DNA of 64,000 bases from Octopus vulgaris (Eukaryota): NCBI GenBank assembly GCA_951406725.2, contig OX597815.1, positions 91,202,001 to 91,266,000 of the forward strand, written 5' to 3'. Below, in pieces: positions 5,879-62,419 of this stretch (positions are counted from its first letter, which is position 1; every line of letters starts with the position of its first letter). A program made the translations under genes and the position numbers. A model generated the notes under the pieces. The model worked only from the letters and a program-made list of their open reading frames with translations. It made no database searches and had not been told where the DNA came from.

Positions 5879-7163
5879 GAGGGAGTACCCAGAAGCAACT
5901 GGAAACATTCTCTGTAGGATAAGCCCATTATAGTTCAGGCTTCCTCTGAGGTCATTTAATACAACCCTCAGGTATCAGTCTGCCAACCAGTAGTTTGTTT
6001 TGGTTTTGTAGTGCTTCTTCCCTGTTCATCGATGTTTTGCGTTGGCTGAAACGAAGGAACAGCATGCTTCCGTGTGAAATTTTTTCTGTTGGGGAAAACA
6101 GTGGCTGAAACAGTTGTCATGCTTCAGACAGCTTACAAGTATGTTGCCATGAACAAAACACAAGTTTATGAGTGGTTTCCACATTTTAGGAATGGTCACT
6201 TATCACCTGAAGACCAATCTCTTTTAGGGCAACCATCGACCTCCCGAACGAATGAAACATCACAACAATTGATGATCTGATCTTGGAGGACTATCGCCGA
6301 ACAATTGACGTACTTGTCAATATGACTGGTGTGTCCTGGAACCTCTACCAACAAATTTTGAGTGAGGTGTTGAGAATGAAAAAAGTTGCAGCAAAACTCG
6401 TGTCTCGCTTGCTCACGAAAGATCAAAGGCAGTTATGACTGAATGTGTGTTGTGAACTGAAAGAACAGTTGGAAGTTGATCTGAACCTTTTTTTCGAAGG
6501 TTATCACTGGTGGCAAAAGCTGGTGCTACAGCTACGACCTGGAAACGAAGCAGCAATCAATGGAAGCATTCAAAGTCACCACGCTCAAAAACAAGTGCGT
6601 CAAAGTAAAGTACAATGTCAAGACGATGCTGATTTGTTTCATTGGTTCGAAAGGAATTGTCCTTACAGAATTTGCTCCTTCTGGTCAAACTGTTTACCAG
6701 ACATTTTACTTGGAAGTTTTGAAGCATTTATGAGATGCGGTGAGACAAAAAAGCCCCGACCCGTGGCAAAGTGGAGAGTCGTAGTTTCATCACAATGATC
6801 TGCCTGCACACATCGCCTTGAGCGTGCGACAGTTTTGACCCAAAATGGCATAACCCCGCTTACCTACAATCTAAATTTCCCTGATCTTGCTCCCTGCGAC
6901 TTTCTTGGTTCCCCCGAATAAGAAAAGTCTTTAAAGGAAAACATTTTGCAGATGTTGAAGAGGTGAAGAAAAAAAATGACGAAGGTGTTAAAAGGCATCA
7001 CATTGCAAGAGTTCAAGGACTGCTTCGAACAATGGAAATTGCATCTGGACCAACGCGTTGCTTCAAATGGAGAATACTTTGAAGGAGATAAAAGACTAAA
7101 CCTGTAAATCTTAGTGAATGAAATAATATTGCAAATTTCTGGTTTTATTTGGGTACCCCCACA
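5878..7163 (+). mobile_element. full-length decayed mariner transposon (DD34D, irritans-like)
   Basis: ~1.29 kb flanked by TA, with imperfect TIRs (tgagggagtacccagaagc / tttgggtacccccaca). Frameshifted transposase motifs: KTQVYEWF (HTH), VITGGKSW (~ITGDESW), HHNDLPAH (~HDNAPAH) and PDLAPCDF. Confidence 0.9.
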
Positions 7164-7896: not shown

Positions 7897-8712
7897 TTAG
7901 GTCATCCCATAAGTTTTGTCCGATTTTAACTTTTTTTAAATTGAATGAAATTTAATAGTATTTCAGAATGTCTGATGGAATTAAAAACTATTCTTATGCA
8001 TTTGTGTATATTTAAACCAATTAAATATTATTTTGCAGAATAATAGAACTGAAATTTCTTTGATTAAAACCCTTTCTAGCATGGAAGTATCCAAAGAGCA
8101 TAGAGGCAAATAATGCTTTATGAATACAAAAATGGATACTCTGCAGCTGAAGCGACTCGAAACATACACTCAGTTTATGGGAAAGAACGGTTGAATGAAA
8201 GAACTTGCAGAAGATGGTTTGCAAAATTCAGAAGTGGAGATTTCAGCCTTGAAGATGAAGATCGAACAGGACGTCCAGTTGAGTTTGATAAGCTCCTTGA
8301 GGCATTACTTGAAGAAAATTCTGCATTATCAGTTGAAGAATTGGCAATAAAGCTTAGTTCAAACCATACAACTGTTCATCGTCGTCTTCAACAACTTGGA
8401 AAGGTTCTTAAACTTGGAAAATGGGTGCCTCAGGAATTGTCCGAAAGCAACCGCAAATCCGGAGTTGACATCTGCTCTTCTCTCCATTCTCACGAACTCA
8501 TTTCACCCGTTTAGATAGACTTGTGACTGGTGACAAAAAATGGATCTTCTATCGAAATGTTAAATGTCGTAAACAATAAAAGGGAAAAGGTTCAACCACA
8601 ACCGAGAAGGGAACTTCATGGGAAAAAGGTTCTTCTCTCTATCTATTAATTGTTACCACTTAATGCAACAATCAATGCTCAAGTCTACTGTCAGCAATTA
8701 GAGCGTTTGGGT
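7897..8712 (+). mobile_element. 5' part of a mariner transposon (truncated transposase pseudogene)
   Basis: TA-flanked left end ttaggtcatcccataagt. ORF 8113-8514 has the HTH (ERTCRRWFAKFRSGDFSLEDEDRTGRP) and WVPQEL (WVPHEL motif), followed by VTGDKKWI after a frameshift. No right TIR seen. Confidence 0.9.
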
Positions 8713-9957: not shown

Positions 9958-10510
9958 ATGTTGCAGATATTGGAGAGAATTGGCCGACCCTTAAAAAGTC
10001 AGGAAAGTTCTGGGACTGATACAAAGAAGCATCAAGATTGGTTTAAAGAAAATGAGGAACATACAGATGATTTATTGGCTGATAAAAGACATACTTTGTC
10101 ACACTATTTGTCAGCAAAGCCACAGGAGAGGGAAGTGATGCATAGGGAACTCAAGGATGTGAAAGCATGTGTGAGGTGGAGGCTCTCTCAGATGTGATAC
10201 ATGGTGGAGTAAGAAGGCTGAAGAGATACAGGCAGTGTTGGATTCCGATAACACAAAGCTGTTGTATGATCTCTTGCGAGAAGTTTATGGACCAAATTCT
10301 CTGATGATACCACTTCGAAGCAGAGATGGTAAAGAACTTCTTTGTGATTCACAAGGAATTCTGCAAAGGTGGCAAGAACACTTTGGTGAACTTTTGAATA
10401 AGCAGTCTGTAGTTAGTGAGGATGTTCTTAATCTTGTCCCTGAGTTACCTGTGAAGGCAGCTCTTGTGGAACCACCAAAGCTGGAAGAAGTTCTGGTGGC
10501 TCTCTCTCTC
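9958..10510 (+). pseudogene. RTE/BovB-like LINE ORF fragment (endonuclease-RT linker)
   Basis: KHQDWFKENEE, LYDLLREVYGP and ILQRWQEHFGELLN match RTE-clade linker motifs; stop-interrupted. Confidence 0.75.
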
Positions 10511-11178
10511 AAGGTCGCTCTCTCTCTCTCTCAAGGTGGCTCTCTATGCACATATATCATTTAATGTCCACTTTTCCATGCCTCCATGGATCAGACGAGA
10601 TTTCTTGCAGCAGATTTTCTCCTGGCAGACGGCTTTCCTGTCGCCAACCCTCACCTGTTTCCAAACAAGGTAGCATTTCTCCATGGCCAGACATTTTTTT
10701 TTCATGGAGTACTGGAAACAACCAGCCTCACTTGTAAGACGATGATGCTCATTTGCAACCACCATGTGATGTGTAGACATGGGTACATGCTAATAAAAAC
10801 ACAGACACACATACATACATATACATAATATACATACATTACATACAAACATGTATATATATATAGTCCACAGATAAGATCCAGAGATTCTCAGTATAGC
10901 AAACACTTAGTAGTGCTCAAAAGATTCAAACTTAGACTCCATTGTCTTTACAAGGGATCGATTCTGAAAGGTGAAGAGGGATCAAGTTAAGTGGCAAAAG
11001 AAACCTATAGATTAAGTACCAGACTTTAAAAAATAAGTACTGTGCTTGATACATTCAACTGAAAATTCTTTAAGGTGGTTCTCCAGCATGGCTGCAATCT
11101 AATGACTGAAACAAGTAAAAGATAATGATAAAAGATATGTATATATATATGAATATATGTCCATTTGATTAGTGTAGT

Positions 11179-11285
11179 TTATATCTTTCCTGATGAGATT
11201 GATGCACAGCTGACCATAATTCTTCCTGTCATATGTATGTTCAATGCATCTATCGAAACATATGTAGAAGATAGGAAGATATAAA
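11179..11285 (+). ncRNA. type I hammerhead ribozyme, intact core
   Basis: CTGATGA at 11190-11196. Stem II GATtGATGCA/TGCATCtATC begins with G10.1-C11.1. GAAA at 11255-11258, palindromic stem III ACATATGT, cleavage triplet GUA at 11264-11266, stem I TATCtTTC/GAAGATA. Confidence 0.85.
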
Positions 11286-11471
11286 TGTTTTAATAACATC
11301 CTGAGCGTTTGTCTCCTTTTTCAATTTTTCCAGTTTTCTCCTAAATACGAATCAAACCACACAGAAGTGTGTTCATTGTTTCCTAGGACACTTAAGCAAC
11401 ATTTAGCTATCTTGTAATTATTCCCTTGGATATTTCCTATAAATTGCACACTCATACATACATACATACAT

Positions 11472-11555
<84 letters not shown>

Positions 11556-11702
11556 CATCATCATCATCATTTAGCTTATATTGCTGGTATATTGCAATCC
11601 AAATAACCAGGAGTAAAACTCAATATACATATGCTTCACAACAAAATGTTAGTCAAGTACAAAACAGTAATAATAAAATGAGATAACAAAAGAATAAACA
11701 AT

Positions 11703-19648: not shown

Positions 19649-20982
19649 ATTGTTCAAGGATATGTTTAATATAATTTGGCTGCTATTTTGTTTATTGAGA
19701 AAAATGCAACTGCTCCCTGTTGCTAAACATTATGTGGTCCTTATATTATTTGTTGAGAGATATTTGGCCACTGCATTGAATAAGGTGAGTGATAATTTAG
19801 AGGTAACTGCATTACTTGTTATAATCATGATAGCAATTAGGTATTCTGAAGACATTATCAGTGTGTCATATTTAAATATAGTCCATGTGCAACTGACAGA
19901 AAAATAATATTTTAATTAAATAATACAAGTATAACAAATATGATTATAAAGTTCTGACACACTGATTCAAAGCATAGCAGGATTCACAATGGCTTCTGTA
20001 ACTTGGTAACATTACCCAGTAATTAACCTGATTTTTGTTACCTTTAAACCTTTAATATACTGAGAGCATAGTGAAATTGCTCCAAAAATGACTGAATACT
20101 GAGGGAACAAAATTTTACCCACATGTAAAATTTACATATAAATGCTACAAGTATTAATGAGTATATAAAATTTCATAGATCAGGGAATATTTCATTTACG
20201 TTTAATAGAGTAACAGAACACAACAGCAATTGAAAGGATAGCAGAATGAAATTTGAGTTCTGGAATGAAGCATTTCAGAGAAGAAATGGAGAAAATGTTT
20301 AGTACATAATTTGGAGAAGTGAAATTACTTCCATGTTAGCTGTGTTCAGCTTTGGTAAGATAACACTGCACAATAAAACTATAGATTTCAGTTGACACTG
20401 TGTAAAAATTAATTAAACTTAATTAAATACATTGGACAGTCATAAACACCTGACTTTTCATACAGTTTCACCATGAACAGAGAAAGAAAGATCAACTGGA
20501 TCGATTTCAAATTTTATTGAGATTTCATCAGTAACTGATTATGTTACCCTAAGTACCTGCAGTAATATTGTACACATAACCACTATAATTAAAGGTTTTA
20601 TTAAATTGGATACATCAAATTGGCAACTTTGATAAATATATTACTGACACATTAGCAGTGTTCATCTCTGATTAGATTAAAAGAAAATAGATGGACTAAA
20701 TCATTAAGTTAAGTACTTCTGTGAATACAGTGGCAGCTTTGTGATTTGATATGAACTGTGAATCCTTCTTATTATAGATCAATAGCTTACTAAAGGAACA
20801 AAAGTCGATCTATTTTTATGTGCATTGGGGTAGACTGTGTCCATTAAACAGTTTAAGTATTTAAAAATCAATTTGATTCCTAGAATCAAGATTAGTATGT
20901 GAAAGCATGTGTGTGTGTAGAGCCTGTATGTTCATATGCATGTGTGTGTGTAGAGCCTGTATGTTCATATGCATGTGTGTGC

Positions 20983-21029: not shown

Positions 21030-24000
21030 AGATGACAGTATTGTAATTAGTCCCCATAGAAGATGCATACCCACAAAGGCTTTATGAAACTGAAGGAAAT
21101 TGAAATTGTAATTCATGCTGTTACCTGCACCCACTGCATCCAGCCAAGCAACCACAAAGATATTCTTCTTTCCAGATGTTGAAAACATCTCCCAACATCC
21201 CTACCAGCTTTCCCAGGTCCACAGGATATGAGCTTCCACAATCAACGTTGGCACAGTGAAAGGTAGGTCTAGTGAGATTGTTGAAATGCTTGAGCAGAAA
21301 AGTGTAGATGTGTACTGTGTGCAAGAGGTATGAGGAAGGGGAACCTCAACCAGATTGCTTACAGACAAGAGTCATAGACACAAGCTTTTCTGAGTGCGCA
21401 ACAATGATTGTCTAGGTGGTGTTGGTATTCTTCTGGCAGAGAAATGGGTGGATAAGGTAACTGAGGTAGTCAGAGAATGTAATAAGATTAGTAAGTCTTG
21501 TTTAATGTAAGAGTATCATTTATCTCTGCATGTGCTCTACTCATCAGACTCACGGATATTCAGTAGGAATGTTTCTATGAATCCTTTCTGTGGTTTACCT
21601 CAACAACAAAAGACAATGACGTTCTCATTGTGAAAGGGGACTTCAATGATCATGTTGGGAAATACTTCGATGTATTTCAGGGTGTGTATAGAGGCTACAA
21701 TTTTGGCTCTAGAAATGCGAGGGAACACGGCTGCTACAGTTTTGTGATGTACTGGACTTACTAGTCTACAACAGCAACTTCAGGAAACCTGCCAGCCATC
21801 TGATCACTTATCACTCTGGTAGGCACACTAGCCAGATTTACTACATTCTCACCAGAAACAGGGACATGCATATGCTAGTGAATGCAAAATCCTTTCTAGG
21901 TGAAAAATGTACAACTCAACAAAGGCTAGTGGTTAGTGACTTCAGACTTAAGGCTAGAATAATCCAGAGCCACAAACTGATATGAAAAAGGAGGTTATGG
22001 AAACTCAAGGAACCTTCAAAAGGGCAGAGATTTAGAGATATTCTTAACGAAGCCTTTCATGAGAAGGAGGAAGAGATGGAGACATATGACATAGAGGACA
22101 ACTGGAAGTTCAAGCAGGACAATCTCCTGAAGGTGACAGAACAAATCTGTGGTTGGAGCAAAGCCTCTGCCAGACCAAGAGTGACATAGTGGTAGAAGAG
22201 TGAGGCTGACAGGGCCATAAAAAAAGAAGAGACAGGTGTGGAAAGAGTGGAAAAGAGAAGGATAGCAAAGAACCATATCAGATAGCTTTTTTTGTGATCC
22301 CCTTCGGTCATGAATGACCATGGGATTGCACCTAGAAAGTTACCCTCTGAGGCACAAGTCGCCCATGCATACTGGCCATCAGATAGCTAAAAGAGAAGCT
22401 AAGCATCAGATTTGTCTAGCTAGGGCAGAAACAGAAAGGAAGAGATTTGCCAATGTCTTGCAGCATGAAGATCAGAAACTTGAAGTGTTGCAGATTGCTA
22501 GGCAGTATCAGAGAGAATCGAGATATTGTGAGCGAGAAGTGTGTATGGATGGATAATGATATGTTTGCACTAAATGATTTTGAAAAGAAAGTGGCATGGA
22601 AGAGTTACTATGTAAAGTTATTAAATGTGGAGAATGAAGGGGAGCAAGGGAATTTCCCTCATGTGAACCTAACAGAAAAACCAGTTATCTTAGTTGACAA
22701 CAGTATAATAGATAGAGCAATTAAAGGTATGAAGGCAGGACAAGCTCTTGGTCAATCTGGAGTCACTGCTGAGATATTTAAAATATCAGCCTTGTCACCT
22801 GCATAGTTAATCAGGTTATTTAGTAAAGTGCAGCCTCTAGTGACTGGTGTAGTAGCATTATAGTCAGTTGTTACAAGAGAGATGCCACAGACCAATGTAA
22901 TTATAGAGGCGTTAAATTGCTGGACCAGGTGATGAAAGTTACAGAGAGTTATAGCCCAATTAATTAGAAACAGAATTATGCTAGATAATAGGCAGTTTGG
23001 CTTTGTGCTGGGGAGAAGTACTACTGATGCAAGAAGAGTATTTATCAAAGAATAAGCCATTATGCTTGACATTTGTTGATCTAGAGAAAGCCTGGGTGAT
23101 ATGGTGGGCTCTGTGGGTGCTTGGAGTAGATGGGTGGCTTGTGAAAGCTGTACAGGCCATGTACAGGGGCTCTGTCAGCAAGGTGAGAGTTGACCATGAG
23201 TACAGTGATGGATTTGGTGTACAAGTAGTCACTCATCAGGACTCAGTTCTCAGTCTCCACCTTTTCATAATAGTCCTTTGGGCCATAACAGAGGAATTCA
23301 AGACCGGACTGACCCTGGGAAGTGTTATATGTTGATGACCTTGCTCTCTTAGCAGATTCTGTGACAGAACTAGAAAAGAAATTCCATGTGTGGAAGCAAA
23401 ACCTGGAATCAAAGGGACCTAAGATTAACTTATCGAAGACTAAGATTTTAGCAAGTAACAAAACAGCAGGGACCCTACCCACTTTAAGTGAATGGTCCTT
23501 AATATGTGGAAAAGGTATAGGCAGGAACTCCATATGGTGTACTTAGTGCACAAGAGGTGCAGTGAAATAATATAAGGGTATTGGGCTATCAGAGAAAGCA
23601 GTGTTTGTGGAAGATGTAGATACACCAGAACTATAAAGGATACACATACTCAGGAAATTAATTCTCTCAAATACCCAAGAAGCTCTTTAGAGGTACTGGA
23701 TAATTTCTGCTACCAAGGGAGTCAAATTAGTAGTGGGAGTGGATGTACAAAAAGTATAAACACTAAAATAAGAATAGGATGGAGAAAATTCAGAGCTTTT
23801 GCCACTGTTGGCAACCAAAGGTCTCTCTCTCTCTCCAAGTGAAAGGAAGATTGTATGGTGCATATATACAAACAGTGATACTACATGGTAGTGAAATATG
23901 GGCCCTGAATGCAAAGGACATGTAAAGGCTAGAGAGAAATAAAGTTAGTATGCTCTGCTGGAGGTGCAGTGTAAGTGTACATGTGTAACAGAGTGCTAGC

Positions 24001-35789: not shown

Positions 35790-37294
35790 TGCCAGAGTCA
35801 CTCACCCTTATTCACACACACACACACACTTACACACTCATGCACACCATTCTCCACATACACACACGAACATCGAATGTATATATTTGTGTGTATGTGT
35901 CTATGATTGTTCCTCCATCATCACTTCAACAACCGATGTTGGTGTGTTTACATCTTCATAACTTAGCAGTTTCGCAAAAGAGACTGATAGATTAAGTAAC
36001 AGGCTTATAAAGAATAAGTCCATGGGGTGATTTCTTCAACTAAAAAGGCAGTGTTCCAGCATGGCCACAGTCAAAATGACTGAAACAAGTTAAAGAATAA
36101 AAGAATTAATTACGCTAAACGATGATGATGATGATGATGATGGTCATTTCCATTGATTTCATCATGTGAGTGTTTGAAAGAAAGGATTTTAAAAATTATT
36201 CTTAAATAAATGAAGCTGCATCTATTTGCAATGGATACATGGATGCAATTTGAGTCCGAGTATGGATTTTGCTATGAAGTCACAATGAGGACACTGAATA
36301 TTTTGATTTTGGCTAAGACTGGACCAATGTGTCCATTGATTGCCAAATTTATTGTTCTGTTTCTTCAACATAAATTGTTTTGATGCATCATGACACATTT
36401 TTTTACACCATACAGATTGATCTAGGCAGTGTGTGCATGTGTGTGTGTGTGTGATCATCAACATTTTCCTATGGTGTGATCATCATCCATTTCCTATGCT
36501 GGCATGTATATATTTTTTCTGTATCAGGATCTGAAATGTAAGATCTTTTTCTACCCTGATGATGGAGGCTCAATTTGGTTATTTGCTTCTTTTACTGTCT
36601 CCATATTTTGGTGAACTACACCTATCAACATTATGATTGATCTCCAAGCCCCCAGAAACAGTTGTTCAACTTATAGCACCTTACTTTTTCCCATTTGATT
36701 TTCCCTGTCATTTGTACTCAATATAAGTTCGATCTATTAATATAAATATCTATATATTTATACTTAAATATTCATCATCTAAAAATGTGCAGTCTTTGCT
36801 TTCTTTCTGTTTGCATGTATTCATATATATATATATATTGTATATCAAACCCAAGCTGTTATATTTAAATTGTTTATCTGCATAATTGCCTCTATATATA
36901 TGTGTGTATGTATACACCTATAAAAAGAAATACTGTGTAAAACAACAAAATAAATACATCCATGGTAATTAAAAGTTCAAATGAATAATAGGTCATTAAA
37001 CTCCAACATGTTATAACATTGCAGTGAATCTAGTGGAAGAAGATTGCGTGTGTATACATAATCAGCTAAAACAACTCATAAGAGCAACGTATATTCAGAA
37101 TAAACAGCAAAAAGCATCAATTTCATTGATCATTATTTAATTACTTTCAATAGCTGGTTCATTACTTAAAAAACATCATTAACTTTGTAATTACATAATT
37201 AAGATAATTAATATATATTAATTTAAAGTAATATTTATCCAAAAGCATCAAGAATACTGTTGGTAATTCTGGCCATAAACCATATGTAAAATTT

Positions 37295-39430: not shown

Positions 39431-42400
39431 ACAAGATTCAAACTGACTTTTAATGTATTACATATATATATATATATATATATTTCTTTTATTTTTTTAC
39501 TTGTTTCAGTCATTTGACTATGGCTAAGCTGGCGTGCTGCCTTTAGTTGAACAAATCAACCCCAGGACTGATTCTTGCCTAGCACTTATTCTATCAGTCT
39601 CTTGCTGAACCACTAACATTGGTTGTCAAACAATTGTGAGGGAACAAACACAGACACAAATATAAACACATTCTTTCAGTTTCCATCTACCACATCCACT
39701 TACAAGGCTTTGGGCAGCCTGAAGCTATAGTAGAAGACACTTGCCCAAGGTGCCACACAGTGGAACTGAACCTGGAACCATGTGGCTGGGAAGCAACCCA
39801 TGCCATCATGAAAATAATGGATGTTAAATAATGACAGACAGATAGATAGATATAGATATATATTTATCAATGCTGTGACTGGTTGCAATAACTTCCATTT
39901 GACAGAGAAAGGCTAAGGAAGAGGCAAGAAGAATTGGGAAAAGAATCAAGAGATAAAATGGTCTCCCATAAATGCACATATAAAGAATATTCTAATTAGA
40001 TTAGGAACTGATTCTATGGTAGCAATATGGGTAACTGGATCTGGAGATATGACATTATGAAGAAGTTAAAGAATGGATTATCTTGAACTTGGTCTTATTG
40101 AGCTTAGAAGTCTGAACCAAAATAATAATGCAGAATTATCATAGTTGCTGCTGTTGTCACCTTCACTGCTGCCACCACAACTTCTATCAACGCCATTGTC
40201 ATTGTTGTTGTTATTGTAATATCTACTTTTCAATGGTGGCTTGGCCTAGCATAGTTGGACTTCACAAAGCACATCTCCAATTATTTCATTCCTGCATTCT
40301 CTATTAGGTTTAGCATTCTCAAAGCTTACCTCTTCGTTTCTTCTCATGTCTTATTTAATATTTTGGTTTCATAATGCAATATGTGAGCAATGACATGGAT
40401 GGTTACAGGTTTGCAATGCATCAATCACCAATTCATTTCTTTTCTGGCTGTGAGAGTTACGAGGGAATGGTTGTAACTCAAAGAAGACTATGGGAACACA
40501 AAGAATTTCATTCATAGAGCACCACTTATTGCTAATGTTTGCATTTTTTTGTCAATATACATCAGCAAAAGAAACATACAGGCATACACACACATATACA
40601 TACCCATATACACATATGGTGATTGCTTCATCTTCTCAAGTGAATGTTGTCTTTTTGTGCTTCTTCATTGTTAATGGCATTTCTGACTTTCCATCCATGA
40701 CAGCTCAGATGACTATTCTGTCCTGCTGCAGATCTGTATAAGCATACACTTCCAGTTGGGTAGATCTGCACATGGCACCATCCTTTCTTTGCCACAGGAC
40801 TTTCAGTAGATGGAATGACACATGAAAGTGCCATAAAGAGACATTTGGTAACATATAACCCAGTACAACCAGTTGCATGTTTGAGTCATCAGTGTTTAAA
40901 TTGGTGACATCACCAAGTATACTTGGCCAGTTGACCAGTAGGACATTCTGTAGGATGATAGTTCAAAAATTTGTAAAACTTTCCAGAGGTTTACCATTTA
41001 AGTATATAGGCGTATGTTTAGACATGTAAATATGTGCATGAGAATACATAAAACAAAACATACAAATTTGCATGTGCACTGACTTTGAATGCCACACATA
41101 TACACATACATGCAAACATACTCTGTTGATGATGTTGAAATTCCAATGATGGTACCTTGAATCTAAGTTAGAAACCAGATCTTTCTCTATTGGCAAGAAA
41201 TCTTGAAATAAAACTGAATAATGAAATACATACATGTATGCATGCATGCATGGTGGTTGTCTACTCCTTATGCAAAGTTTGACCACCTCCTGTACCTACA
41301 TCTTAGAACCATCATGGCATCTGATGGTTCTAAGGTGATGGTTCTGATGATTCATACATACATACATATATATATATACATACATACATACATACATGAA
41401 ACCGCATATTGCTTTATGACACAGAATGCAAAAAACCCTGCGCTGTTGTAAAGATCAATTGCCTGACACGTGAATGACTTGCCTAAAACAGCAATTCATG
41501 AGAAACTTTACAGCTCCAATATCAAGGCTATAGATTCTACTTTGTACCTATTGTCATAGGTGCGCTGGACTCTAATAACAACAAGCTGGTTATCAAGAAA
41601 GAACAAAGCAAAACGATTCACATTCTTCAAATACTATCAATTAATAGTACTGTGGAAATTTGTAAAATACCTCAGGAAATTTCTTAAGTTTTCTGAATTG
41701 AACATATGCATAGAATCATACCTGTGTATGGAATACACATAAATACATACACACTATATACACTACACACATGCACATAAACAGTAATGAATTACACACC
41801 CATAGCAAAAGTGCAAATTTATCTAATACTTGCACCTATGTATATATACACTCTAACTTATCCCCTTACACACCGACTCCAGGAATTGTTTCAACTTAAA
41901 CGAAAGAGCCATGCCACTTTGTAAGTGACTGGCTTGAATTCTTCAAAGGAATAAAAATAAATCTCAAAGAATGCACATGTATATTCATACAGTTATACAC
42001 ACACATACATACATATACACAAACTGATGCAATCACACACATAGAAACATCCATGGAGACATGCATATATACATACCAACATAAACACATGCAAATAGAA
42101 ATACCTATATATTCATGCATGCATACATACACACATGTACATGCCCACAAAATAACACAATCGCACACATATAAACATACAGATACATCCAGGCAGACAG
42201 GCATACCTACATAAACACATGCAAACATAAACACATATATATTTATATTCACACAGGCATACATACATGCATGCTTATACAAACCATACATACACACAAA
42301 ATGATACAACCATACTTGTATATACAAACATAAACACATCCATGCATATATGCATACCTTCATACACAAATACAAACACAAGTACACATTTATATTCATA

Positions 42401-43515
42401 CATGCATACACACATACATATACACAAAATGACACAATCACACATGTATATACACACAAAGCCACATCTACACATACATGCATACCTATGTACAGATATA
42501 CAAACACAAACACACATATATATATTTACACATGCATACACATGCACATACTTACACACACCATACATACACACATGCATACCTATGTACAGATATACAA
42601 ACACACATATATATTTACATATGCATATACATGCACATACTTATACACACCATACATACACACAAAATGATACAATCACATGCCCATATATGCACACATA
42701 GATAGATACATGAATACATGCATACATACATTATATAACATAACATACATTCACATAGCAGGCTCAGTTTCTGTCAGACCAAAATTTCCGTCAGAAGATA
42801 TATTGATCAATCAAGGCTGTAACAGATAAAAAACAAAAACATTTGCCTACTGGGTACCACAGCTAGATCTAACCTGGAACTACATGGCTGCAAAGTGAAC
42901 TTCTTAAGCACACAACCATGCCATCTCCTTTGATTAGCCCAACCACAGATACCTTTTTCTGCTGAAATCATGTCACCAAGTATACTATAACTTTTTAAAT
43001 TCTGTATCCTTACTGGTGTAATTGCATTTCTTACACACATAGATTTAATGCTGCTTCCTCAACCGTCTTGCACTCAAAAGTTCTTGCACATTAAAATTAC
43101 ATATCCAATAGACCATAATCAGAAAAGCTTCTCGCTGGTTGCAGTGTGGCTTCTGTACTTATTGTTCATATATCACAACCATGCTACATCGCACTTCTTA
43201 CACACATTTCTTACATTCTGCCAGAAAATTTGTTTGTGCTGAGAATGAACTGGAGTTTTCCTTGGCAGAATGTGTGCTGCTGCTGACAGAACTGTATAAG
43301 ATTAAAGAAAGATTGTCCGAAAAAGTGGTGGGAAGATATTTGGCAAAAGACAAGCATGCATTCAGGGAAGGAGCTATGTTTTGTTTTATTTTCATTTTCG
43401 ATTTTGTATTTTTTTTTGTTTTAGTTTTTGTCTTTGTGTCTTTTTCGGTGTACACTGAAAGTGAACTTTCTTTGCATTCTTAACCATAGCTATTAATGAT
43501 AATAAAGATGAAGAT

Positions 43516-57000: not shown

Positions 57001-57190
57001 TTAATGATTCTAACAATTTAAATTAATGTTTTTCTAATAACTACTTGTATTCTTATCTTAAATGTATTGAATTTTATGCTGTATATATGTATGCTATTAT
57101 GGTTGTAGTTTTGATAATTAAATAAGGCAACATTCTAATATCCTAAACCTGATACACCAACTAATGTGTTTCTCCATTTTCATATTTGTA

Positions 57191-57229
<39 letters not shown>

Positions 57230-57312
57230 CACATACATAGATATGTATATACATATTTATATATACATACATATGTATATACATATTTATATATACATAC
57301 ATACAAGTGTAT

Positions 57313-57371
<59 letters not shown>

Positions 57372-57465
57372 TATATATATTTATATATATATTTGTGTGT
57401 GTGTGTATATATGTATGTATATATATATACATACATACATATATATATACATATATATATATATA

Positions 57466-58165
57466 CCCGTGTCGGTGGCACGTAAAAGCACCATCCGTTC
57501 GTGGCCGTTTGCCAGCTCTGTCTGGCCCCGTGTCGGTGGCACGTAAAAGCACCATCCGTCCGTGTCCGTTGCCAGCCTCGGCTGGCCCCGTGCCGGTGAC
57601 ACGTAAAAGCACCGTCCGCTCGTGGCCGTTTGCCAGCTCTGTCTGGCAACCGTGTCGGTGGCACGTAAAAGCACCATCTGTTTGCATCCGTTGCCAGCCT
57701 CGGCTGGCCCCCGTGCCGGTGACACGTAAAAGCACCATCCGTTCGTGGCCGTTTGCCAGCTCTGTCTGGCCCTGTGTCGGTGGCACGTAAAAGCACCATC
57801 CGTCCGTGTCCGTTGCCAGCCTCGGCTGGCCCCCGTGCCGGTGACACGTAAAAGCACCGTCCGCTCGTGGCCGTTTGCCAGCTCTGTCTGGCAACCGTGT
57901 CGGTGGCACGTAAAAGCACCATCCGTTCACGTCCGTTGCCAGCCTCGGCTGGCCCCCGTGCCAGTGACACGTAAAAGCACCGTCCGTTCGTGGCCGGTTG
58001 CCAGCTCTGTCTGGCCCCGTGTCGGTGGGACATAAAAGCACCATCCGTTCGTGTCCGTTGCCAGCATCGCCTGGCCCCGTGCCGGTGACACGTAAAAGCA
58101 CCATCCGTTCGTGGCCGTTCGCCAGCTCTGTCTGGCACCTGTGCAGGTGGCACGTAAAAACACCC
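57466..58165 (+). repeat. GC-rich tandem array, 11 units of ~61 bp plus a partial unit, alternating A/B
   Basis: Unit CCCGTGYCGGTGRCACGTAAAAGCACCRTCCG..CCGTT(T)GCCAG[CTCTGT or CCTCGG]CTGGC. It runs directly into the RTE-type tail, which ends in (GAT)n at ~58332. Confidence 0.95.
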
Positions 58166-58332
58166 ACTACACTCGCGGAGTGGTTGGCGTTAGGAAGGGC
58201 ATCCAGCCGTAGAAACACTGCCAGATCTGACTGGGCCTGACGAAGCCTTCCAGCTTCACAGACCCCAGTTGACCCGTCCAACCCATGCTAGCATGGAAAA
58301 CGGACGCTAAACGATGATGATGATGATGATGA

Positions 58333-58555: not shown

Positions 58556-59457
58556 ATGGATGTGTGCATACTCAACAGAGTGTAAGTGCCTTGAGAGAAA
58601 AGTTGGACTTAAGAAGCATCAGATGTGGTGTGCAAGAGAGACAATTGCGCTGGTATGGTCATGTGGTGAGAATGGATGAGGATAGCTATGTGAAAAATGT
58701 CACACCCTAGCAGTTGAGGGAACCTGTGGAAAAGGTAGACTCAGGAACACCTGGGGTGAGGTAGTGAAGCATGACCTTTGAACATTAGGCCTCACTGAGG
58801 CAATGACTAGTGACCAAGACCTTTGGAGATATGCTGTGCTTGAGAAGACCCAGCAAGCCAAATGAGACCATAACCCATAGCCGATGTCAGTGGTGTAACC
58901 AGCCCACTTATGCATACTTTTCCTTCATTGGACACTAAACTCCACTTGCGAAGACATGTTGAGGCAAGTGAAATCGAAATCAAATTCAATGACAGCAATG
59001 CATGACTGGCATCCATGCTAGTGGAGCGCTAAGAACACCATCCGAGCATGATCATTGCCAGGGCTGCTGACTGGCTCTAATGCTGGTGGCATGTAAAAAG
59101 CACCATTCGAGCATGATCATTACCAGCGTCACCTTACTGGCACTTGTAAAAATCAACATTTGAGCAAGGTTGTTGCCAGTGCTGCTGGACTAGTTCCTGT
59201 GCAGTTGGCACATAGAAAACACCATTTGACCATGTCCATTGCCATTACCACCTGACTGGCCCTCATATCAGTTGTACATAAAAGTACCCACTACACTCTC
59301 AGAGTGGTTGGTGTTAGGAAGGGCATTCAGCTGTAGAAACTCAGCCAGATTAGATTGGAGCGTGATGCAGCCATCTGGCTCGCCAGTCCTCAGTCAAACC
59401 GTCCAACCCATGCCAGCATGGAAAGCATATGTTAAACAAAGATGATGATGATGATGA
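58556..59457 (+). mobile_element. RTE LINE 3' end with unit-bearing 3' UTR
   Basis: LREKLDLRSIRCGVQERQLRWYGHVVRMDED..GRLRNTW, then 3-4 decayed ~60-bp units and the tail. An inverted relative lies at 59935-60560. Further ORF-end fragments at ~1545-1680 and ~12060-12150. Confidence 0.85.
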
Positions 59458-59916: not shown

Positions 59917-62419
59917 ATGAGGATTTTAGTTATCATCATCATCATCATCATCATCCGTTTTCCATGCTGGCCTGAGTTGGACGGTTTGACTGGGGTCTGG
60001 GAAGCCAGGAGGCTGCACCAGGCTCCAGTCTGATCTGGCAGTGTTTCTACAGCTGGATGCCCCTCCTAAGGCCAACCACTCCGAGAGTGTAGTGGGTGCT
60101 TTTTATGTACCACCAGCACAGGGGCCAGAGGAGGCTGGCAATGACCACGATCGGTTGGTGCTTTTTACGTGCCACCAGCACAGAAGCCAGTCAATGTGGC
60201 GCTGGCATCGGCCACATTCAGATGGTGCTTTTTACGTGCCACTGGCACGGGGATCATAACTACTGTTTCCATTTGATTTTGATTTTGATGTACTTGACTC
60301 AATAGGTCTCCTCAAGCACAGCATGTCACCCTACAATCCAAGGTACTTTTGAGTGGGCTGGTTATGCAACACTGGTGTAGATTACAGTTGTGAACTCACT
60401 TTATTTTCCAGGTCTTCTCAGTCACAGCATATCTCCGGAAGTCTCGGTCTTTCGTCATTGTCTCTGTGAGGTCCAACATTCGAAGGTCATGTTTCACCAC
60501 CTGATCCCATATCTTCCTGAGTTTCCCTCTACCCCGAGAGAATGTAAATGGAATGGGACATTTCTTTACTGCACATTTTCTTCTTTTTTTTTGCTTCATT
60601 AAAATTGTGACTTCTTATGTAACCTATTTCTCTTAACCATTTAAAGATTGAACTCATACAGTATTTATTTTCAACTCCAAATGGTTCTAAGTTATCATAA
60701 GTGAAGGCTGAAACCCCACTTCATCTCTCAGAATTTGATAAAGCAAGTTTATTGATCAAGTGACTCTTGTTCCTCTTCTATGAAAATCTGACAAATCTGT
60801 TGTTGAAAGAAATCCATATTTTTTCCATGTTTGAATTATTGCTACTATTGTTTCCATTCTTAGAAATATATCATTATAAAAGATCTCCTCTGGTTCAAAA
60901 TAAATCTGACAATTTTGTAAGTTTTATTTCTTTTCCCTTATCTCACTTTATACTGTTTTATTGTAGAATTATTTCGACAAGAGAAATTAAGGAAAAAATT
61001 TTTTAAAAAGTTCCAAAAAATTGTCACCTTAAAAAATGAAAATAAAAATGGTTGCAGCTAATTTAATAATATTTCCTAGAAATATATAACTCCTTCCCCG
61101 ACTGTCTTCTGATAATTTTAAATTGCTCCAAAGATTAGATTCAAAATCCAATAATATCTTTAAAGAATGAAAGAGAAAACATTATAAAGTCAGCAATAAC
61201 AACAATGATAATATCATTAATAATAATGATGATAATAATAATAATGATGATGATGATGATGACAGAAAATAATTATTATAGTAAAACCCAAATTCCTCCA
61301 ACCCTCATCTACTCTCAAAGATGCACACAAAATAACCTTTTGAAATGATTACTTTCAGAGTTTTGGGTGAATTAGAGGTCTTTGAGTGATATTCTTGATT
61401 TGGATGATGGAAAACTGTAGAAAAAAAAAATGCAGATTAATTTACTGTAAGAAAAAATCATTATGTGGTATTATAAGTGATCAAAACTGATTTGGATAGG
61501 AAAAAATATAATAAAATAAATATATCGAAAGAATACACCAAAGCTAAACAATGCAACAATACTACCACCATCACCACCAACAACGACATTGTCTACAACA
61601 GCAGCATCAGTATTAGTAGCAACAAGAAACTAGCCTTGTGGTATCAAAAACGATGTGGAAAAACTTTCGGAAAGTACTAATCTTTATTTATTTCAGTCTA
61701 TAATCTTCTTAAGGGTAAAGCTTTCCACTGTTTTCAGTGAAATAAAGAGAAGTACAAACATGCTTCAGCTTAGAAGCAAACAACAACAGCAACAACAAAT
61801 AACGAAAGAAAAATTGATCTGGTTTCACCTCACAGAAAATTGTATTATATGATTGCCATTAAGATTTGCTTAGAAAATACAATAGATATAGAAATAAATA
61901 TAGAAAAAAAACAAAAGCCATATATTTTTTCTCTACCTGTCTATGTCTATCTGTTAGACTGACTGACCATCTAAGTCAGTAACAGTATTCATTCTTTCTC
62001 TATTTTATTATCTCTCTCTTTCTCCTCCTCCTATCTCTCTCTCCCTCCTTCTCTCCCTCTCTCTCTCCTTCTCTCTTTCCTTCAATAAATTTGTTTTTTC
62101 ATATGCACACACACACACACATGCATACACACACACACATGCACACACACTCACACACAAACACATACACACACATATTCATGCAAAGCTCCAACTCAAT
62201 AATAACCCCTAATTGTATGTGCAGGGCAAACACACAATATGCTAGAGTTGTGCACTTTAGTGGAGTGGCTAGGTGGTAACAACTGTGAGAGACCTTCACC
62301 TGTCATCAAACAATCATGCTTTCCCTTTGAGGTGCAGTAAAAAGGCAAAAAACATCAACCCTCCTATCATAAGAGATTCTCCTCCTGTCAGGTAAAACAT
62401 CTCAGAAATACAGCAGGTA

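What the first reader, a model, noticed from the sequence alone, without database searches (positions are those of the whole stretch)
11135..11450. Intact hammerhead with canonical core and palindromic stem III
All core nucleotides are present (CUGAUGA, GAAA, GUA). Stem II has 9 of 10 pairs starting with G-C and a large loop of ~38 nt. Stem III is the perfect palindrome ACAUAUGU, which suits dimeric cleavage. A short duplication after the cleavage site (GAAGATAG GAAGATATAAA) offers two stem I registers, and only the first is catalytically competent. If this strand is transcribed as an intron, the RNA could self-cleave after 11266.
Basis: partly seen in the sequence, partly recalled or inferred. 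Interest (0 to 1): 0.75.

Follow-up and report, generated by a model that had tools for sequence, protein, structure and literature searches.

The report
Decayed Penelope-type hammerhead with long loop
This is a real hammerhead (self-cutting RNA) motif inside a roughly 290-base repeat found in many copies in four related animal species, likely the end piece of a Penelope-like jumping gene; this lone, mutated copy is predicted to misfold and probably does not cut, so it is an unusual-looking version of a known thing.

Summary
Core, 9-of-10 stem II, 38-nt loop, 8-nt palindrome and both stem I registers are where stated; 0 of 200 shuffled windows give such a motif. It is not a lone intronic ribozyme: 206-255 contigs per run from four coded organisms lie on 11136-11452, so it is one copy of a dispersed repeat. 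Copies thin towards the 5' end, run into microsatellites and form opposite-strand junctions (8 of 12 listed joints), as Penelope-like element ends do. No link to a Penelope ORF could be tested. The duplicated 3' arm is family-wide. This copy differs from the majority letter at 8 listed places in 11207-11274; four add pairs to a hairpin that buries the palindrome and cut site (pair probability about 1; catalytic fold 15.7 kcal/mol higher), and no partner copy lies in the window. It is likely dead. The family is a modest variant: loop II of 38 nt and stem II of 10 bp lie outside the published descriptor and Rfam misses it. Cleavage, transcription and a host intron are untested or unseen.

The parts
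11155..11450 (+). One copy of a dispersed repeat family, 5'-truncated; likely the 3' terminal repeat (pLTR) of a Penelope-like element
   Evidence: 246, 255, 249 and 206 contigs laid in runs X1, X3, X8, X9; cover from about 11158 to 11452; loose ends before 11173 show other copies going on upstream with sequence this copy lacks; the 5' edge near 11155 is read by eye from those loose ends
11178..11189 (+). Stem I, 5' strand
11190..11196 (+). Conserved core CUGAUGA (positions 3-9)
   Evidence: no majority difference listed
11197..11254 (+). Stem II (11197-11206 with 11245-11254, 9 of 10 pairs) closing a 38-nt loop II (11207-11244)
   Evidence: folds as a hairpin on its own at -9.8 kcal/mol; 12 of the 39 listed variable places lie in the loop, and the one in the 3' strand is the unpaired 11251
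11255..11266 (+). GAAA core, 8-nt palindromic helix III (11258-11265) and GUA triplet; predicted cut between 11266 and 11267
   Evidence: self-duplex of the palindrome -7.0 to -9.0 kcal/mol; position 17 reads C in 5-27% of depth in other copies, a letter the NUH rule allows (established knowledge)
11267..11285 (+). Duplicated stem I 3' arm: register 1 (11267-11273) and register 2 (11274-11285)
   Evidence: duplex energies -4.4 and -10.3 kcal/mol; both repeats are present in the family, the only majority difference listed here being at 11274
11221..11279 (+). Competing hairpin of this copy (11221-11242 pairs with 11255-11279), predicted to block the ribozyme
   Evidence: pair probability 0.997-1.0 in four contexts that hold the second repeat, 0.79-0.95 in two shorter ones; four of its pairs come from letters peculiar to this copy
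10992..11135 (+). 3' part of a SINE-like repeat, unrelated to the hammerhead element
   Evidence: 72-87% identical stretches elsewhere in the window; its tail motif occurs 13 times (8 on +, 5 on -)
11135..11158 (.). TA-rich short tandem tract at the 5' edge of the element
11447..11570 (.). Compound microsatellite (CATA, CA, AT, ATC units) at the 3' edge of the element
   Evidence: other copies also run into microsatellites behind 11331, 11446 and 11450 (table 7)

Best explanation
The motif is a type I hammerhead sequence with a palindromic helix III inside one copy of a dispersed repeat family, likely the 5'-truncated terminal repeat of a Penelope-like retroelement, and this solitary copy is predicted to misfold and likely does not cut. 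Shown: the motif, the repeat family in four coded organisms, the places where this copy departs from the majority, and the lack of a second copy in 64 kb. Inferred: in the source element two tandem terminal repeats on one transcript would pair through their palindromes into a double hammerhead and cut after position 17 to process the element RNA; a short cDNA of the 3' end was inserted into a TA-rich tract behind a SINE and then decayed, and four substitutions strengthened a hairpin between loop II and the cut-site region.
For: Motif beyond chance: 0 of 200 shuffles. Repeat family: 206-255 contigs per run, most 80-95% alike; 40-47 contigs per run carry the majority letter at 11274. Retroelement-like polarity: summed depth falls from about 6900 at 11268-11289 to 1580 at 11180-11190 in X1, with the same trend in the other three runs. 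Eight of 12 listed joints are opposite-strand; for the 4 that I could match by depth to a record of table 8, the two pieces meet at their low-coordinate (5') ends, the inverted 5'-truncated arrangement described for Penelope-like elements (passages). Ends run into microsatellites, a bias noted for some PLE clades. None of the 39 listed variable places falls on the 20 core, helix III or paired stem II positions of 11245-11265 (hypergeometric P 0.011). Palindromic helix III with a 4-nt loop occurs among published PLE-type hammerheads (Fig. S3). This copy: catalytic fold ensemble -15.7 against -31.4 kcal/mol free; register 1 never above 0.005 as the 3' end grows; with random letters at the 8 copy-specific places stem II returns in 421 of 500 folds.
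Against: No RT or GIY-YIG frame is attached here and none could be linked in other copies, so PLE membership rests on structure alone. Only 40 of 120 variant rows and part of the joints, loose ends and pieces were shown, so the sparing of the core is a weak, after-the-fact test. The fall in depth towards 5' may partly reflect this copy's divergence at 11207-11251 and the edge of the stretch. Loop II (38 nt) is far longer than the 3-9 nt of 56 published representatives, and the usual extra nucleotide after A9 is absent. Folding energies ignore tertiary contacts, Mg2+ and proteins, and natural ribozymes often tolerate imperfections. The family-majority sequence itself was not folded.
Confidence: 0.7

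Rival explanations
1. The repeat is a non-autonomous, hammerhead-bearing retrozyme or SINE-like unit of about 300 bp that spreads through circular RNA, and this is a solo monomer.
For: Length of about 290 bp and low GC fit non-LTR retrozymes (150-450 bp, passages); solo monomers are common and retrozymes derive from PLE terminal repeats; no ORF is attached.
Against: None of the 12 listed joints goes back head-to-tail; the listed loose ends behind 11331, 11446 and 11450 are microsatellites with low agreement (0.49-0.76), not a fixed next unit; copies continue upstream of 11173 with shared sequence; inverted 5'-to-5' junctions dominate. No tandem unit in the window.
Confidence: 0.15
2. This copy is an active ribozyme that cuts a host transcript (for example an intron) after 11266, as monomer or as a dimer in trans.
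For: All core letters are kept although 14 of the listed places in 11207-11410 differ from the majority letter in all four runs; stem II is predicted to form first during transcription (probability 0.5-0.74 at 3' ends 11256-11262); residual depth suggests the same locus may exist in runs X1, X3 and perhaps X8 (not shown directly).
Against: At that divergence an intact core is unsurprising (about 0.1 by a simple per-site estimate over 36 positions; my arithmetic, no call). Register 1 is never populated; register 2 wins even when stem II is forced (0.999); no partner copy nearby; no host exon found; published PLE hammerheads cut weakly even as dimers.
Confidence: 0.08
3. The hammerhead-like pattern is an accident in some other repeat (for example a DNA transposon derivative) and never worked as a ribozyme.
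For: No Rfam hammerhead match at any threshold tried; atypical long loop II; a minor family variant at 11269 (6-38% of depth) breaks the third pair of register 1 with no compensating change listed.
Against: 0 of 200 shuffles; the two core motifs alone matched 16 loci in metagenome and viral collections, none homologous over the element and none folding as this hammerhead, so the stems here are the unusual part; variation spares the constrained positions and position 17 varies within NUH.
Confidence: 0.05

Closest known systems
Hammerheads in the pseudo-LTRs of metazoan Penelope-like elements, variants with a small palindromic helix III (Cervera and De la Pena 2014, PMC4209133; Fig. S3 rows for Drosophila willistoni, Aedes aegypti, Saccoglossus kowalevskii 2)
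   Same: Type I topology, CUGANGA and GAAA cores, G10.1-C11.1 pair, longer than canonical stem II, palindromic helix III with 4-nt loop, short core-proximal stem I, many dispersed single copies and opposite-strand pairs 100-700 bp apart.
   Different: Loop II 38 nt against 3-9 nt in 56 listed motifs, stem II 10 bp; no extra nucleotide after A9 (absent in only 2 of 56); family-wide duplicated 3' arm of stem I. The published descriptor caps loop 2 at 10 nt and stem II at 7 bp, so part of the contrast is ascertainment. No ORF link shown here.
Non-LTR retrozymes of animals (Cervera and De la Pena 2020, PMC7229834; Li et al. 2026, bioRxiv 10.64898/2026.07.22.740005)
   Same: Type I hammerhead in a low-GC, non-coding repeat of about 300 bp; weak helix III needing dimers, as in the axolotl family.
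   Different: No tandem arrangement seen in the window or among the listed joints; no canonical 6 bp/4 bp stems; circular RNA not tested.
Conserved intronic hammerheads of amniotes (RECK, C10orf118; passages of PMC3088659)
   Same: Type I hammerhead in non-coding DNA of an animal.
   Different: Those are conserved single loci with shown cleavage; this is a repeat copy with a palindromic, dimer-type helix III, a predicted blocking hairpin and no identified host gene.

Membership tests
Hammerhead ribozyme, type I | Conserved core C3 U4 G5 A6 N7 G8 A9, G12 A13 A14, A15.1-U16.1 and H17 | tested here: met
Hammerhead ribozyme, type I | Stems I, II and III can form around the core, with stem I open-ended | tested here: met
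   stem II 9 of 10, stem I 3+4 pairs in register 1, stem III 2 pairs as monomer or 8 as dimer
Hammerhead ribozyme, type I | The catalytic fold is thermodynamically accessible in this copy | tested here: not met
   (secondary-structure prediction only)
Hammerhead ribozyme, type I | Match to an Rfam hammerhead model | tested here: not met
   no hammerhead family at gathering score in 64 kb, none among 10 matches up to E 10 in 10900-11600
Hammerhead ribozyme, type I | Site-specific self-cleavage after H17 | not testable with these tools
   Needs an RNA assay or raw reads with ends; the runs laid were contigs
Penelope-like element pLTR hammerhead | Palindromic, very short helix III | tested here: met
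   compare Fig. S3
Penelope-like element pLTR hammerhead | Dispersed multi-copy family with 5'-truncated and inverted copies | tested here: met
   206-255 contigs per run, 8 of 12 listed joints opposite-strand, 4 read as 5'-to-5'
Penelope-like element pLTR hammerhead | Terminal repeat adjoins an ORF with telomerase-like RT and GIY-YIG endonuclease | tested here: inconclusive
   No such frame next to this copy; only 30 letters of upstream loose ends were visible for other copies; no genome held
Penelope-like element pLTR hammerhead | Extra nucleotide between A9 and G10.1 and short loop II (consensus traits) | tested here: not met
   2 of 56 published motifs also lack the extra nucleotide
Non-LTR retrozyme | Head-to-tail tandem units of 150-450 bp, each with a hammerhead | tested here: not met
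   Window: single copy; listed joints show no tandem junction, but unitigs and cut tables can hide one
Non-LTR retrozyme | Abundant linear and circular monomer RNA | not testable with these tools
   No RNA run was laid; the single read-laying run went to four DNA-type or unlabelled runs

The most novel reading that the evidence does not exclude
The family carries a built-in copy-counting switch: its duplicated 3' arm parks a lone ribozyme in the stronger, non-catalytic register 2 with the palindrome looped out, and only a second copy on the same transcript pulls stem I into the catalytic register, the displaced repeat perhaps being caught by the pyrimidine patch of the 38-nt loop II. It would be a long-loop class of Penelope-type hammerhead that published descriptors and Rfam cannot see.
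Probability: 0.12. Interest if true: 0.6.

Novelty: new variant of a known kind. Interest (0 to 1): 0.28.

Why it matters
Hammerheads in Penelope-like element ends are known and common, and a decayed copy has no likely effect on its host. What is of some use: this family has a 38-nt loop II and 10-bp stem II that the published minimal descriptor (loop at most 10 nt, stem at most 7 bp) and Rfam both miss, so censuses of animal hammerheads are probably incomplete; and its family-wide two-register stem I is a cheap test case for how dimer-type hammerheads are kept off as monomers, a function that is still unclear (in vitro insertion by the anole element did not need cleavage; passages).

Tried and rejected
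Rfam: no hammerhead match. No whole genome is held, so copies could not be read as sequences, aligned or tested for covariation. Pattern scans: 12 metagenome and 4 viral loci matched the two core motifs; none is homologous over the element (best 35 nt at 86%, the rest 13-16 nt motif matches) and none folds as this hammerhead; longer patterns found 0 in genome contigs and 0 in viral contigs. Family-level antisense switch (loop II pairing over the cut site): strong with window letters (-22.9 kcal/mol, 0 of 5000 shuffles) but marginal with the copy-specific places masked (-8.6 and -8.7; 146 and 228 of 5000 shuffles; 1193 of 5000 random window 31-mers as low), so rejected as a family trait. Directed origin of the blocking hairpin (template switch or selection): a drop as large arises in 191 of 3000 random sets of 8 substitutions, so chance decay suffices. 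A second loose hit on the - strand near 20531 has no junction pairing and fails the stricter descriptor. An ORF starting inside the hammerhead, as in the anole element: by eye the + frames from nearby ATGs stop within a few codons (sequence). Host gene: 7 of 359 frames had Pfam hits, 3 mariner, 1 RT remnant, 3 weak sub-cutoff hits. Earlier notes of this scan on this genome or on look-alike stretches: none. Lunse et al. 2017 is not held.

Full report
1. The observation. At the observed stringency the descriptor hits once in the window and in 0 of 200 dinucleotide shuffles; looser settings give 6 and 30 of 200. A minimal-hammerhead descriptor finds no other motif on either strand. Rfam does not see it.

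2. Surroundings. The window is AT-rich and full of microsatellites and dispersed repeats. The SINE-like repeat whose 3' part lies at 10992-11135 has a tail motif that occurs 13 times; I recall it as octopus-like, which comes from no call. Of 359 stop-free frames of about 50 codons or more, 7 had Pfam hits: mariner remnants at 6050-6277, 6485-6730 and 8104-8511, an RT remnant at 23313-23543, and three weak sub-cutoff hits. No host exon and no GIY-YIG domain was found; short exons would be missed. The motif sits between a TA-rich tract (11135-11158) and a compound microsatellite (11447-11570). No second copy lies in the window.

3. It is a repeat copy. No genome is held, so I laid contigs of four public runs from four coded organisms on 11136-11452 at 80% likeness (4 of 24 listed runs). 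246, 255, 249 and 206 contigs were laid, most under 95% alike, and 40-47 contigs per run carry the majority letter at 11274. Summed depth is no copy number, but against single-contig depths of about 36-60 for most listed pieces in X1 it points to tens of copies or more. Depth falls from the middle of the element towards its 5' end in all four runs. Loose ends show that some copies go on upstream of 11173 with shared sequence and that copies run into microsatellites behind 11331, 11446 and 11450. Eight of 12 listed joints change strand; four could be matched by depth to pieces of table 8, and in my reading each joins two copies at their 5' ends. Several junctions recur in X1, X3 and X9, which suggests old shared insertions. 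These are the traits described for Penelope-like elements: 5' truncation, inverted 5'-truncated copies, microsatellite bias (passages) and opposite-strand hammerhead pairs 100-700 bp apart. The tables were cut: 40 of 120 variant rows, 24 of 333 loose ends and 32 of 989 pieces were shown.

4. The family keeps the ribozyme pattern. None of the 39 listed variable places falls on the 20 core, helix III or paired stem II positions in 11245-11265 (P 0.011 on 11207-11410, 0.007 on 11207-11333; chosen after the fact); 12 fall in loop II, one on the unpaired 11251, and position 17 varies between A and C. Against this, a variant at 11269 (6-38% of depth) breaks the third pair of register 1 with no partner change listed, and nothing is listed 5' of 11207, where support is lower. 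The only majority difference listed in 11267-11285 is at 11274, so the duplicated arm belongs to the family. By pairing rules the majority letter there lengthens register 1 by about two pairs and shortens register 2 by one, yet register 2 likely stays stronger (window duplexes -4.4 for register 1, -8.4 for register 2 without 11274).

5. This copy is predicted to be off. It differs from the majority at 11207, 11231, 11232, 11234, 11239, 11242, 11251 and 11274 and lacks about 14-15 nt after 11348. Four of these letters add Watson-Crick pairs to a hairpin of 11221-11242 with 11255-11279 that covers the palindrome and the cut site. That hairpin has probability 0.997-1.0 in four contexts and 0.79-0.95 in two shorter ones, with stem II at 0.07 or less and register 1 at 0.07 or less. 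Forcing the catalytic fold costs 15.7 kcal/mol; forcing stem II alone gives register 2 (0.999) in 11170-11295. As the 3' end grows, stem II forms briefly (up to 0.74) but register 1 never exceeds 0.005. A forced double hammerhead scores -25.1 against -50.0 for two free monomers (forced pairs only, so somewhat understated). Holding five copy-specific places unpaired removes the inner arm but leaves the outer arm at 0.77-0.87 and stem II low; random letters at all eight restore stem II in 421 of 500 folds, register 1 in 149 and register 2 in 290. These proxies disagree in degree, and the family-majority sequence was not folded, so how well the family folds is open. A stabilisation as large as seen arises in 191 of 3000 random sets of eight substitutions, so decay by chance is enough. 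A family-wide antisense switch was tested and not supported.

6. Mechanism. Shown: motif, family, copy-specific changes, solitude. From established knowledge of PLE hammerheads: tandem terminal repeats on one transcript pair through their palindromes into a double hammerhead and cut weakly after position 17. Inferred: a 3' end fragment of such an element was inserted into a TA-rich tract and decayed. I put this at 0.7, a solo retrozyme monomer at 0.15, an active host-RNA cutter at 0.08 and an accidental pattern at 0.05.

7. Comparison. It works like the PLE hammerheads with a small palindromic helix III (Fig. S3 of PMC4209133). Membership of PLEs is likely but not shown, as no RT-EN ORF could be linked. 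It differs in its 38-nt loop II (3-9 nt in 56 listed motifs), its 10-bp stem II, the missing extra nucleotide after A9 (also missing in 2 of 56) and the duplicated arm. The published descriptor caps loop 2 at 10 nt and stem II at 7 bp, so such families would have been missed. That list has no cephalopod row; an Octopus vulgaris annotation gives Penelope-like elements 6.83% of the genome in 190 families and does not mention hammerheads in text or supplement. Eight searches found no paper on this family; subscription papers, Repbase and Dfam were not searchable, so it may already be catalogued as a repeat.

8. Papers seen. PMC4209133: parts 1-2 of 4 of the text and the whole supplementary PDF. 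bioRxiv 10.64898/2026.07.22.740005: parts 1-3 of 5, supplements not seen. Passages only: PMC7229834, bioRxiv 10.1101/2021.04.23.441226 and PMC8557442, PMC6765202, PMC13282606 (42, with supplement search 43, 68), PMC11167929, PMC3088659. Lunse et al. 2017: not seen, known only as cited in PMC6765202. Earlier notes of this scan on other genomes reach similar verdicts for other motifs; they are leads, not support.

9. Verdict. Real motif, known kind, modestly unusual variant, this copy likely dead. Interest 0.28.

Noticed in passing
window 6050-7100 and 8104-8514, + strand: Two broken Tc1/mariner transposase remnants (HTH_48 and Transposase_1 hits).
   Followed up: no
window 9958-10540, + strand: Open frames that look like a fragment of an RTE-type LINE (resemblance recalled; no Pfam hit), ending in a CT-rich 22-nt tandem repeat at 10500-10545.
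   Followed up: no
window 23313-23543, + strand: Reverse transcriptase remnant (RVT_1, E 2.8e-05, below the curated cut-off); reads like a LINE-type motif, class not determined.
   Followed up: partly
window 36225-36479, - strand: Weak zinc-finger hit (ZNF512_C2HC, below cut-off), possibly a LINE tail remnant.
   Followed up: no
window 57118-58287 and 41980-42728: Long imperfect tandem arrays that hold open frames (387 aa on the - strand at 57118-58281; units of about 61/244 nt and about 126-151 nt).
   Followed up: no
window 59280-59431 and 59952-60103: Inverted repeat of 152 nt, 85% complementary, around a long GGT microsatellite.
   Followed up: no
window 11209-11214 with 11228-11234: A possible inner helix in loop II: five of the six pairs 11209-11214 form with window letters, and the majority letters would complete it by pairing rules, presenting the pyrimidine patch 11220-11226 in an apical loop.
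   Followed up: partly
window 11223, 11269, 11277: Minor family variants at these places (T>A, A>T, A>T) would be compensatory if the loop II patch paired with either repeat of the 3' arm; they cannot be phased from the tables.
   Followed up: partly
window 11331-11333 and 11446-11450: Family copies end at two preferred points about 120 nt apart, both into microsatellites, recalling the two reverse-transcription start sites of the anole Poseidon element, which lie 30-40 nt apart.
   Followed up: no
window 20460-20540, - strand: Loose hammerhead-like hit (both core motifs, 7 of 10 stem II pairs, no junction helix); fails the stricter descriptor and is within chance.
   Followed up: yes
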